A stretch of 17,858 bases of DNA, taken from the IMG/VR virus record IMGVR_UViG_2778261693_000003; one strand, 5' to 3'. Shown piece by piece: positions 6,860-7,867 of this stretch (positions are counted from its first letter, which is position 1; each line of letters opens with the position of its first letter). The position numbers and the translations under genes are program-made. The notes under the pieces were generated by a model. It saw nothing but the letters and a program-made list of their open reading frames with translations. It was not told the origin of the DNA and did no database searches. The stretch comes from a virus (Duplodnaviria > Heunggongvirae > Uroviricota > Caudoviricetes).

Positions 6860-7086
6860 TTTCTTTCCTCTGTTATGCCATCACCCGCGCTCACCTGGAC
6901 AGTATGCAGCGGAGACTGAAGCGCCGCAATGCAGGCTTGCCGTGTTGTGAGGTAAGGAGATTTTGGCTTGGTTGGATCTTTACGTGTTGCCTGTAGGCGG
7001 CCTGTTCGTATCCAGTTGGTGGCGGTTGGTCTGGATATCTTAAGAAACTGACAGGCCTCATCGAGTGTGAGGCTGTATGATTCCAT
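6715..7086 (-). CDS. xis: Putative excisionase / AlpA-like DNA-binding protein
   Basis: ATG at 7086 is preceded by GAGG. N-terminal HTH-like segment ([27 protein letters not shown]). Lies immediately upstream of int; the ORF overlaps the int start by about 145 nt, so the functional C-terminal end is uncertain. Confidence 0.55.
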
Positions 7087-7336
7087 GGTTACCTCTGCTT
7101 TTTGAACGCATGTCACGTAACTTCTTAATGTGTTCTGCCGTTTCGATCTCTTCTGCTATCCGATCTGCATCAGCTTTATTCACAGGTTCAAAGTCATGAT
7201 TAAAGCGGAACATGCTGGCGATACATGTTCTGCCTTTTCGGATGTAGTGAACTTTGTTGTGGGTAGAACGCAGGATTTTGCAGGGAGTGCCGTGGTGGTC
7301 GACGTACCAGGTGTTAGGGTAAATCACTCTGAACAT
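7058..7336 (-). CDS. Hypothetical prophage accessory protein, 92 aa
   Basis: ORF with an AAGG motif 7 nt upstream of the ATG, overlapping its neighbours in a leftward-transcribed operon. No family recognised. Confidence 0.5.
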   Translation of the reverse strand: MFRVIYPNTWYVDHHGTPCKILRSTHNKVHYIRKGRTCIASMFRFNHDFEPVNKADADRIAEEIETAEHIKKLRDMRSKSRGNHGIIQPHTR

Positions 7337-7646
7337 TCTTGACCTTGTGTTGTGCGGATTGATATTCAGTGCTGATATTCACCTTTATAGCGAACACCTT
7401 TACCGGTTTATCGCCAAAGTGTGGATGTGTGATTGTCTTCACTTCATATCCGTCATACGGAACATCAATTCTGCGACTGGAATCGTCGCGCTTCGGATAT
7501 CCCTTTGTGATAATCAGGCGGTCATACTCCCGGAACATAATTCGCTTATTCCAATAGTCATTACACAGGCGATACTCCTCCGTTTTCTCTCCGCGAATCA
7601 TGGCATCGAAAAATTCACTTTTAACAGGAAGTTGCAGGTTAGCCAT
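7314..7646 (-). CDS. ASCH/DUF3850-like domain protein, about 110 aa
   Basis: The motif LPVKSEFFDAMIRGEKTEEYR...REYDRLIITKGY resembles ASCH-type beta-barrel domains. The ATG at 7646 overlaps the stop of the upstream zinc-finger ORF (TGATG); a GTG start at 7649 is an alternative. Confidence 0.6.
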   Translation of the reverse strand: MANLQLPVKSEFFDAMIRGEKTEEYRLCNDYWNKRIMFREYDRLIITKGYPKRDDSSRRIDVPYDGYEVKTITHPHFGDKPVKVFAIKVNISTEYQSAQHKVKNVQSDLP

Positions 7647-7867
7647 CACTTAATCCCCCTTTGTTTGCGGATAAGCTCCAGATCTTGCTGGCAACTGGCG
7701 CAAGTTCGACAACCCTGAACGGCTAGGCGTCTTCGTTCATCTATCGGATCACCACACTCACAACAATGAGTGGCAGATACAGCCAGGTGGTTCAGGCGGC
7801 GCATTTTTATTGCTGTGTTGCGCTGTAATTCTTCTATTTCTGATGCTGAATCAATGATGTCTGCCAT
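7646..7867 (-). CDS. TraR/DksA-family C4 zinc-finger protein, 73 aa
   Basis: Four-cysteine motif CxxCG(x17)CxxC (CCECGDPIDERRRLAVQGCRTCASCQ), typical of phage TraR-like proteins. Confidence 0.75.
   Translation of the reverse strand: MADIIDSASEIEELQRNTAIKMRRLNHLAVSATHCCECGDPIDERRRLAVQGCRTCASCQQDLELIRKQRGIK

What the first reader, a model, noticed from the sequence alone, without database searches (positions are those of the whole stretch)
7058..7867. Accessory trio between xis and the Red module: unknown 92-aa protein, ASCH-like protein, TraR-like zinc finger
Three overlapping leftward genes occupy the variable region where lambdoid phages carry host-takeover or anti-defence functions. TraR/DksA-like proteins bind RNA polymerase, and ASCH-domain proteins are RNA-binding. 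Their tight overlaps (ATGA/TGATG) indicate co-expression.
Basis: partly seen in the sequence, partly recalled or inferred. Interest (0 to 1): 0.4.

Follow-up and report, generated by a model that had tools for sequence, protein, structure and literature searches.

The report
Lambdoid prophage early-left accessory genes
These three small genes are ordinary early-operon passengers of a lambda-like E. coli prophage: one is the already studied RNA-polymerase-binding protein Orf73, and the other two are uncharacterised phage proteins that travel independently of it rather than forming a fixed three-gene system.

Summary
The three leftward ORFs exist at the stated coordinates. Pairwise dN/dS of 0.09-0.32 shows they are real genes. 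They lie at the xis-proximal end of the pL operon of a lambdoid prophage inserted at tRNA-Arg(UCU).

- **The 73-aa zinc finger** is the ortholog of lambda Orf73 (67/73 identical). It keeps every TraR hallmark. Orf73 has been shown experimentally to bind RNA polymerase, slow host growth and raise burst size. It belongs to the conserved exo-xis block, not the variable part.
- **The 110-aa protein** is a minimal, divergent ASCH/PUA-like barrel. It has an invariant GxKxxExR octapeptide, and ASCH proteins are its top fold matches. It does not reach Pfam's ASCH threshold.
- **The 92-aa protein** is a DUF4222 member: a Tudor/SH3-like barrel followed by a helix. It shares its Pfam family with RgdR, a pleiotropic regulator carried on a mobile element.

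The trio is not a unit. It is contiguous in 4 phage records (phage 21, ev207, PhiR63_2), whereas about 330-340 records carry Orf73 or the ASCH-like gene. Most DUF4222 loci have Orf73 directly upstream with no ASCH gene.

In related prophages the gap between orf73 and DUF4222 is a swap slot. It holds NinX, DNA methyltransferases or other genes, each ending 23 nt inside DUF4222. The finding is ordinary and largely known.

The parts
7646..7867 (-). orf73: a TraR-family C4 zinc-finger protein (73 aa) and the ortholog of lambda Orf73.
   Evidence: It is 67/73 identical to the lambda ORF at L001 2693-2914. Pfam PF01258 scores 36.0 bits against a 24.9 cut-off. It aligns over its full length to F-plasmid TraR in PDB 5w1s and 6n57. 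D3/D6/A8, C35/C38/C56/C59, R46/R47 and E64..R67K68 are conserved.
7314..7646 (-). A minimal ASCH/PUA-like protein (110 aa). The family core is 93-94 aa. The last ~17 aa are read-through into the DUF4222 translation-initiation region.
7058..7336 (-). DUF4222 protein (92 aa): a small five-stranded Tudor/SH3-like barrel (about residues 10-52), a long helix (54-81), and a junction-derived tail.
7314..7336 (-). The conserved 23-nt overlap junction. The upstream gene ends ...NVQxxxx* inside the first eight codons of DUF4222.
   Evidence: In relatives, unrelated upstream genes (NinX-like, two methyltransferase types, PHROG 874) end at or near the same point in the same frame (the Dcm gene one codon later).
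6715..7086 (-). xis (excisionase, 123 aa from the ATG). It overlaps DUF4222 by 29 nt and int by 145 nt.
   Evidence: PHROG 2907 excisionase, E 4e-46. Pfam HTH_17.
5696..6859 (-). int: a tyrosine integrase (387 aa).
   Evidence: ORF list. Annotated as intD integrase in identical E. coli genomes.
5604..5680 (+). tRNA-Arg(UCU), the prophage attachment site next to fimZ.
   Evidence: ARAGORN, Rfam and the RefSeq annotation.
7874..8610 (-). The conserved exo-xis block upstream of orf73: a 31-aa ORF (7874-7969), a 93-aa orf61-like gene (7966-8247), orf63/DUF1382 (8258-8449) and orf60a/DUF1317 (8422-8610).
   Evidence: Pfam and PHROG hits. Lambda counterparts are listed.

Best explanation
The region is the promoter-distal end of the early-left (pL) operon of a lambdoid prophage integrated at argU. 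It holds three independently inherited small genes, read one after another with coupled translation.

1. **orf73** encodes the ortholog of lambda Orf73. This is a TraR-family protein that inserts into the RNA-polymerase secondary channel. It turns down rRNA and ribosomal-protein promoters and raises phage yield. That function is shown for lambda Orf73 and is inferred here from 92% identity and conserved hallmarks.
2. **The middle gene** is one of several alternative cargos of a swap slot between orf73 and DUF4222. Here the cargo is a minimal ASCH/PUA-like barrel that keeps the Lys/Glu 'GKER' octapeptide. It most likely recognises, or deacylates, a modified cytosine-type base in RNA, or simply binds RNA. 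This is inference from the superfamily.
3. **The DUF4222 protein** is a Tudor/SH3-like barrel plus a helix. It is a paralogue of RgdR and most likely a small host-directed regulatory or adaptor protein. This is also inference.

The three do not form an obligate system. The adjacency seen here is one mosaic combination, and the same combination is found in phage 21.
For: Operon context: int, xis, the exo-xis block, exo, bet and gam are all on the minus strand next to tRNA-Arg.

Orf73:
- The alignment with lambda Orf73 and F TraR shows the DxxDxA motif, the C4 cysteines, the RR pair and the C-terminal ExxRK are conserved.
- The function is taken from PMC9239242 and PMC8614690.

ASCH-like protein:
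- The GxKxxExR octapeptide is invariant and lies in the same register as K21/R26 of YqfB.
- Pfam ASCH and DUF3850 are the only recurring weak hits across family members.
- A 2026 preprint reports that both GKER-type and GKTR-type ASCH proteins remove ac4C from tRNA, with Lys and Glu essential.

DUF4222 protein:
- Pfam hit, AF2 model and fold matches.
- RgdR belongs to the same family. Its regulatory phenotype is described in PMC3378721.

Independence of the three genes.

Swap slot:
- ev243 and SfI lack the ASCH gene precisely between orf73 and DUF4222.
- Prophages of Citrobacter, Lelliottia, Enterobacter and Pseudocitrobacter, and phage HK639, carry NinX-like, methyltransferase, Dcm or PHROG 874 genes in that position (in HK639 the gene upstream of the cargo is not a TraR homologue), and these cargo ORFs stop at the same point 23 nt inside DUF4222 (the Dcm one codon later).

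All three genes are under purifying selection.
Against: - No experiment exists for the ASCH-like or DUF4222 protein of this lineage.
- The Tudor/SH3-like fold is generic, so it says little about the function of DUF4222.
- TraR-DUF4222 adjacency persists down to about 45-55% identity, for example in Klebsiella phage ST101-KPC2phi6.1 and in 10 of 11 species-level loci. Some functional link between those two genes therefore cannot be excluded.
- The co-occurrence samples are dominated by closely related E. coli prophages and are not phylogenetically corrected.
Confidence: 0.75

Rival explanations
1. The three proteins are a dedicated host-takeover module that acts together on RNA polymerase or on nascent RNA. 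Orf73 would bind the polymerase, and the ASCH and DUF4222 proteins would be its cofactors.
For: The genes are tightly packed and overlap. The same trio occurs in phage 21, ev207 and 593 of 5,426 complete E. coli genomes.
Against: The ASCH gene mostly occurs without either neighbour: 52 of 80 viral contigs. Its 332 phage records include virulent Salmonella siphoviruses, Ralstonia phages and a jumbo Klebsiella phage. DUF4222 mostly occurs with Orf73 but without the ASCH gene, in 77 of 80 contigs. Lambda, 933W and 24B carry Orf73 with neither. The slot holds unrelated genes in other prophages.
Confidence: 0.07
2. The swap slot between orf73 and DUF4222 is an anti-restriction or anti-defence cargo position. 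On this reading the ASCH-like protein is a counter-defence factor, for example one that reads or masks a modified base, rather than a regulator of host RNA.
For: In other prophages the same slot carries a SAM-dependent DNA methyltransferase, a C5-cytosine methyltransferase and an AP2/HNH-type protein. PUA-like domains such as EVE, SRA and YTH read modified bases and appear among the fold matches.
Against: The most frequent alternative cargo is NinX, whose function is unknown. There are no PADLOC hits, and no known anti-defence family matches. In most phages the ASCH gene sits among ea-region genes of unknown function.
Confidence: 0.15
3. DUF4222 is a Tudor-like RNA-polymerase-binding adaptor that cooperates with Orf73 at the beta lobe.
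Confidence: 0.1
4. DUF4222 is an accessory factor for excision or integration, because it lies directly upstream of xis/int and overlaps xis.
For: It lies directly before xis or int in this window, phage 21, SfI, ev243, Klebsiella phage ST101-KPC2phi6.1 and phiP27.
Against: It is paired with at least three unrelated int/xis types. In several Enterobacter and Citrobacter prophages, other genes separate it from xis. Its paralogue RgdR lies beside a primase gene, not a recombinase.
Confidence: 0.04

Closest known systems
Lambda Orf73 and F-plasmid TraR (TraR/DksA family RNA-polymerase secondary-channel regulators)
   Same: The window protein is 73 aa and 67/73 identical to lambda Orf73. It has the DxxDxA tip, the C4 zinc ribbon, the RR pair and the C-terminal ExxRK. 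It occupies the same position after orf61 and the 31-aa ORF in the pL operon.
   Different: Six substitutions (L28, V30, A48, Q60, R66, I72). The downstream neighbour is an ASCH-like gene instead of ea22. Activity was not tested for this allele.
ASCH superfamily (PF04266), for example E. coli YqfB ac4C amidohydrolase, T. thermophilus TthASCH, Z. mobilis ZmASCH and E. faecalis 3iuw
   Same: A predicted small PUA-like barrel. The GxKxxExR octapeptide lies at residues 19-26, in register with YqfB G19/K21/R26. It is a stand-alone protein of about 93-110 aa.
   Different: It is below Pfam's threshold, and sequence-profile searches detect no similarity to solved ASCH proteins. It has its own conserved ITHxHFG motif. 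It is a phage-borne family with 1,313 clusters at 50% identity. No activity is known.
RgdR (ECs1581) of the cryptic prophage/PICI CP-933C in E. coli O157:H7, the only studied DUF4222 protein
   Same: Same Pfam family: 67.2 bits here, and E 2e-23 (82 bits) for RgdR. Same layout of a barrel followed by a basic helical tail. Similar size, 92 against 99 aa. Both are encoded on mobile elements.
   Different: Only about 23-27% identical. The RGD motif that is functionally important in RgdR is PNT here. The gene context also differs: before xis in a lambdoid pL operon here, before a primase gene in a PICI for RgdR.
[quoted passage not shown]
   Same: The same conserved block up to orf73, followed by a variable xis-proximal part. 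Early expression from pL is expected.
   Different: ea22, ea8.5 and orf55 are replaced by the ASCH-like gene and DUF4222, the arrangement also found in phage 21.

Membership tests
TraR subfamily of TraR/DksA (lambda Orf73 type) | Pfam zf-dskA_traR (PF01258) above the gathering score. | tested here: met
   36.0 bits against 24.9.
TraR subfamily of TraR/DksA (lambda Orf73 type) | NCBIfam TIGR02419 (C4_traR_proteo) above its cut-off. | tested here: not met
   56.0 bits against 59.7, just below the cut-off, with a full-length match of 3-64 to 1-64/64.
TraR subfamily of TraR/DksA (lambda Orf73 type) | An N-terminal DxxDxA motif, four zinc-binding cysteines, the R48/R49 equivalents and a C-terminal acidic residue with ExxRK. 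| tested here: met
   D3, D6, A8; C35, C38, C56, C59; R46, R47; E64, R67, K68. The hallmark list comes from PMC8614690 and PMC9239242.
TraR subfamily of TraR/DksA (lambda Orf73 type) | Direct binding to RNA polymerase and inhibition of rRNA promoters. | not testable with these tools
   Shown for lambda Orf73, which is 92% identical, in PMC9239242. Not shown for this allele.
ASCH domain (PF04266, PUA clan) | Pfam ASCH above the gathering score. | tested here: not met
   No hit at E<=0.1 for the window protein. The best E-value among 30 close relatives is 0.046 (15 of 30 hit). Among 50 diverse relatives it is 0.003 (5 of 50).
ASCH domain (PF04266, PUA clan) | The conserved octapeptide GxKxx[E/T]xR after the first helix. 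| tested here: met
   G19, K21, E24 and R26 are invariant in A1. K21 is invariant and G19, E24 and R26 are 90% or more conserved in A6. The register matches YqfB.
ASCH domain (PF04266, PUA clan) | A PUA-like beta-barrel fold. | tested here: inconclusive
ASCH domain (PF04266, PUA clan) | RNA binding or N4-acylcytidine amidohydrolase activity. | not testable with these tools
   No experiment is available for this phage family.
DUF4222 (PF13973; RgdR family) | Pfam DUF4222 above the gathering score. | tested here: met
   67.2 bits against 27, residues 4-53. RgdR scores 82 bits.
DUF4222 (PF13973; RgdR family) | The RGD tripeptide needed for RgdR activity on LEE1. | tested here: not met
   The aligned residues are P7-N8-T9.
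Lambdoid exo-xis conserved block | The order exo, orf60a, orf63, orf61, orf73 on the pL strand. | tested here: met
Lambdoid exo-xis conserved block | ea22 directly downstream of orf73. | tested here: not met
   The 588 nt between orf73 and xis are filled by the ASCH-like and DUF4222 genes. This is the phage 21 arrangement.
Known anti-phage defence or counter-defence families (PADLOC) | A match to any PADLOC model. | tested here: not met
   No hits at E<=0.1 for any of the proteins.

The most novel reading that the evidence does not exclude
The evidence does not exclude that orf73 and DUF4222 form a two-part RNA-polymerase-targeting unit. Orf73 would act in the secondary channel and on beta Si1. 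The Tudor-like DUF4222 would act on the beta lobe, as the C-terminal domains of UvrD, PcrA and CarD do. The slot between the two genes would deliver exchangeable nucleic-acid-modification cargo. Here that cargo is a phage ASCH protein, which might erase ac4C from host tRNA while Orf73 shuts down ribosome synthesis.
Probability: 0.1. Interest if true: 0.6.

Novelty: already known. Interest (0 to 1): 0.2.

Why it matters
Little changes if the main reading is right. The region is a standard mosaic of lambdoid early-left genes. It is identical in many sequenced E. coli genomes and nearly identical (about 96-98% DNA identity) in classical phage 21.

Its practical value is as a pointer to two testable things:
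- Two widespread small phage protein families have no tested function. These are the ASCH-like PHROG 625, in 332 phage records, and the lambdoid type of DUF4222. Both sit next to a well-understood RNA-polymerase regulator in a genetically tractable phage.
- The orf73-DUF4222 gap behaves as a defined cargo slot with a fixed 23-nt overlap junction. That could be used to look for further accessory genes.

Tried and rejected
- **Sequence links from the ASCH-like family to solved ASCH proteins.** The close-family and diverse-family profiles against all PDB sequences gave only noise. hhalign of both profiles against YqfB gave nothing.
- **DUF4222 profile against PDB sequences.** No hits.
- **PADLOC defence models.** No hits.
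- **Rfam over the whole window.** Only the tRNA was found.
- **Promoter and terminator scans of 6600-8400.** No more sites than in shuffled sequence. One terminator-like hairpin lies upstream of orf73, inside the 31-aa ORF.
- **A TraR-DUF4222 fusion protein (P0376).** It looked like Rosetta-stone evidence for a functional link. Its sequence shows two frame changes, and it comes from a single 1.8-kb assembly contig, so it was rejected as an artefact.
- **The 123-aa plus-strand ORF at 7347-7718.** It is antisense to the ASCH gene. It was treated as a shadow ORF because selection acts on the minus-strand frame.
- **A literature search for 'ASCH' with 'lambdoid'.** Nothing relevant was returned.
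- **The 190-224-aa slot proteins with a GGKTQTRR motif.** They may be a second ASCH-like type, but only PHROG 874 (function unknown) matched, so this remains an unverified lead.

Full report
**Setting.** The window carries fimbrial genes and fimZ, then tRNA-Arg(UCU) at 5604-5680, then a lambdoid prophage read leftward. The prophage genes in order are int (5696-6859), xis (6715-7086), the three genes of the finding, a 31-aa ORF, a 93-aa orf61-like gene, orf63/DUF1382, orf60a/DUF1317, exo, bet and gam, followed by the immunity and replication genes. The finding therefore lies at the promoter-distal, xis-proximal end of the pL operon. This is the 'exo-xis region' studied in lambda and Stx phages (PMC8614690).

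**Observation.** Three minus-strand ORFs are present:
- 7646-7867, 73 aa.
- 7314-7646, 110 aa from the ATG. A GTG one codon upstream gives 111 aa.
- 7058-7336, 92 aa.

The orf73 stop and the ASCH start share 1 nt (TGATG). The ASCH gene overlaps DUF4222 by 23 nt. DUF4222 overlaps xis by 29 nt. The ATGA at 7058-7061 involves an out-of-frame 56-aa ORF, not xis. Pairwise dN/dS against diverged homologues is 0.09-0.32 for each gene, so all three are real coding sequences. The same 810 bp is 100% identical in many complete E. coli genomes. At least 80% of it is present in 593 of 5,426 genomes, and parts of it in 3,598.

**The zinc finger is lambda Orf73.** The unannotated 73-aa lambda ORF between ea22 and orf61 (L001 2693-2914) is 67/73 identical to the window protein.
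- The window protein passes Pfam zf-dskA_traR and aligns end to end with F-plasmid TraR from the RNA-polymerase complexes 5w1s and 6n57.
- An alignment with lambda Orf73, TraR and four further phage homologues shows D6, A8, C35, C38, R46, R47, C56, C59, E64 and K68 invariant. D3 is conserved in six of the seven sequences and is Glu in the Klebsiella phage homologue.
- These are the hallmarks listed for TraR and Orf73: the DxxDxA tip, the C4 zinc site, the R48/R49 equivalents and the C-terminal ExxRK.
- Gopalkrishnan et al. 2022 showed that purified lambda Orf73 binds RNA polymerase, inhibits rRNA and ribosomal-protein promoters and slows host growth. They also showed it raises phage yield 3-4-fold, and that D3A/D6A abolishes this.

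This part of the finding is already known biology. Orf73 belongs to the conserved block orf60a-orf63-orf61-orf73, not to the variable part.

**The middle gene is a minimal, divergent ASCH/PUA-like protein.**
- Pfam gives no hit at E<=0.1. PHROG 625 (function unknown) matches at 8e-51. NCBI names the homologues 'ASCH domain-containing protein'.
- The family core is 93-94 aa, and G19, K21, E24 and R26 are invariant. Across 50 representatives at 36-54% identity, K21 stays invariant, and G19, E24, R26 and H74 are 90% or more conserved.
- This is the ASCH octapeptide GxKxxExR. It lies in the same register as G19/K21/R26 of E. coli YqfB. I verified the YqfB sequence against PDB 1te7.
- Pfam ASCH and DUF3850 are the only recurring weak hits across family members.
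- Against this, profile searches of PDB sequences and hhalign against YqfB find nothing.

I therefore place it in the ASCH/PUA-like superfamily on fold and motif, while noting that the curated sequence threshold is not met. [quoted passage not shown] That makes an ac4C-type amidohydrolase or a modified-base reader the best mechanistic guess, but it is only an inference.

**The 92-aa protein is a DUF4222 member.**
- Pfam PF13973 scores 67.2 bits.
- The AF2 model (pLDDT 83, and above 90 over the barrel) shows a five-stranded small barrel at residues 10-52, a long helix at 54-81, and a disordered tail.
- The literature links DUF4222 to RgdR (ECs1581) of CP-933C. I extracted ECs1581 from the Sakai genome and confirmed it is a strong DUF4222 member, E 2e-23. 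It is about 23-27% identical to the window family.
- RgdR activates LEE1, represses motility, alters Congo-red binding and binds DNA only non-specifically. It is encoded by all analysed E. coli PICIs.
- The RGD motif that matters in RgdR is PNT here.

**The trio is not a unit.**
- In 50,697 phage records, Orf73-like proteins occur in 341, the ASCH-like protein in 332 and the lambdoid DUF4222 in 58. The ASCH records include Stx2 phages, P22-like phages, virulent Salmonella siphoviruses, Ralstonia phages and a 265-kb Klebsiella phage. The contiguous trio occurs in 4 records: ev207 (twice), PhiR63_2 and phage 21.
- Of the 80 best ASCH-anchored viral contigs, 19 have both neighbours, 52 have neither, and the rest are mixed. 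One example with neither is L032, which has lambda-type int/xis and an erf recombination module.
- Of the 80 best DUF4222-anchored contigs, 77 lack the ASCH gene, and in 76 of them Orf73 lies directly upstream across about a 50-nt gap. Only 3 carry the ASCH gene.
- An alignment of the window with ev243, SfI and phage 21 shows the ASCH gene as a clean indel between the 3' end of orf73 and the DUF4222 start.

**A cargo slot with a fixed junction.**
- In one-genome-per-species contigs, the order in prophages of Citrobacter, Lelliottia, Enterobacter and Pseudocitrobacter is a TraR-like gene, then one variable gene, then DUF4222.
- The variable gene is NinX-family in four loci and in HK639, where the gene upstream of the cargo is not a TraR homologue. 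Elsewhere it is a SAM-dependent DNA methyltransferase, a C5-cytosine methyltransferase, or a 190-224-aa PHROG 874 protein. In one case an extra AP2/HNH-type gene is present.
- Each cargo starts 1 or 4 nt inside the orf73 stop. Each reads through the DUF4222 Shine-Dalgarno region and ends ...NVQDNPA*, 23 nt inside DUF4222. The stop is the TAA formed by the conserved Pro7-Asn8 codons. The Dcm cargo in L177 runs one codon further and ends at a TAG.
- The window's ASCH gene ends ...NVQSDLP* at the same place. That explains its 17-aa low-confidence tail, which the 93-aa family core lacks.
- The tight overlaps therefore reflect a conserved recombination and translational-coupling junction, not co-evolution of these three particular genes.
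- TraR-DUF4222 adjacency is frequent. It holds in 10 of 11 informative species-level loci and in Klebsiella phage ST101-KPC2phi6.1 at about 45% identity. It is not universal, as HK639 and phiP27 show.

**Verdict.** The 'trio' is a mosaic combination of three elements: a known RNA-polymerase regulator, a swappable ASCH-like cargo gene, and a DUF4222 protein of unknown function. The region is annotated in RefSeq and is present in classical phage 21. The residual interest lies in the unknown functions of the two small proteins. An unproven possibility is that DUF4222 is a Tudor-like partner of RNA polymerase or of Orf73.

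Noticed in passing
window 7966-8247 (-); L001 3013-3325: The 93-aa 'orf61-like' protein (PHROG 303) is intact here and in most relatives. In lambda, its N-terminal half matches orf61 and its C-terminal half matches a separate 60-aa ORF in another frame. Lambda's orf61 therefore looks like a frameshifted version of a longer protein.
   Followed up: partly
window 7874-7969 (-): A 31-aa ORF almost identical to the lambda 31-aa ORF, apparently the same as the 31-aa peptide (orf2313) that PMC8614690 says was detected by ribosome profiling in this region. It contains a terminator-like hairpin with a T-run at 7945-7927.
   Followed up: no
window 7314-7336 and loci L169-L177, L181: Unrelated genes inserted between orf73 and DUF4222 share the C-terminal peptide (A/P)NVQDNPA and (apart from the Dcm gene in L177, one codon longer) stop at the same TAA, 23 nt inside DUF4222. 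This marks a conserved module-exchange and translational-coupling junction.
   Followed up: yes
L171 2951-3523; L175 2172-2846: The 190-224-aa slot proteins (PHROG 874, function unknown) begin with ...GGKTQTRR/GGRKTQTRR. This resembles the GxKxxTxR ASCH octapeptide, so a second ASCH-like cargo type may use the same slot.
   Followed up: partly
window 6715-7086 vs 5696-6859: The xis ORF overlaps int by 145 nt. RefSeq annotates only a 66-nt HTH pseudogene fragment here, although the ORF matches the full excisionase PHROG 2907 profile, E 4e-46.
   Followed up: no
window 7058-7107: Similarity to phage 21 and ev207 stops at about window 7107, inside the 3' end of the DUF4222 gene. The last ~16 codons and the overlap with xis belong to the SfI/ev243-type int-xis module, so a mosaic joint lies within the gene.
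   Followed up: partly
P0376 (protein from a 1.8-kb assembly contig): An apparent 167-aa TraR-DUF4222 fusion protein. Its linker shows two frame changes, so it is probably an assembly or sequencing artefact rather than a natural fusion.
   Followed up: yes
L166 18305-18604 (E. coli O157 Sakai Sp7): RgdR, the only studied DUF4222 protein, overlaps the start of the downstream primase gene by 4 nt in a PICI-like element. This context is quite different from the lambdoid copies.
   Followed up: partly
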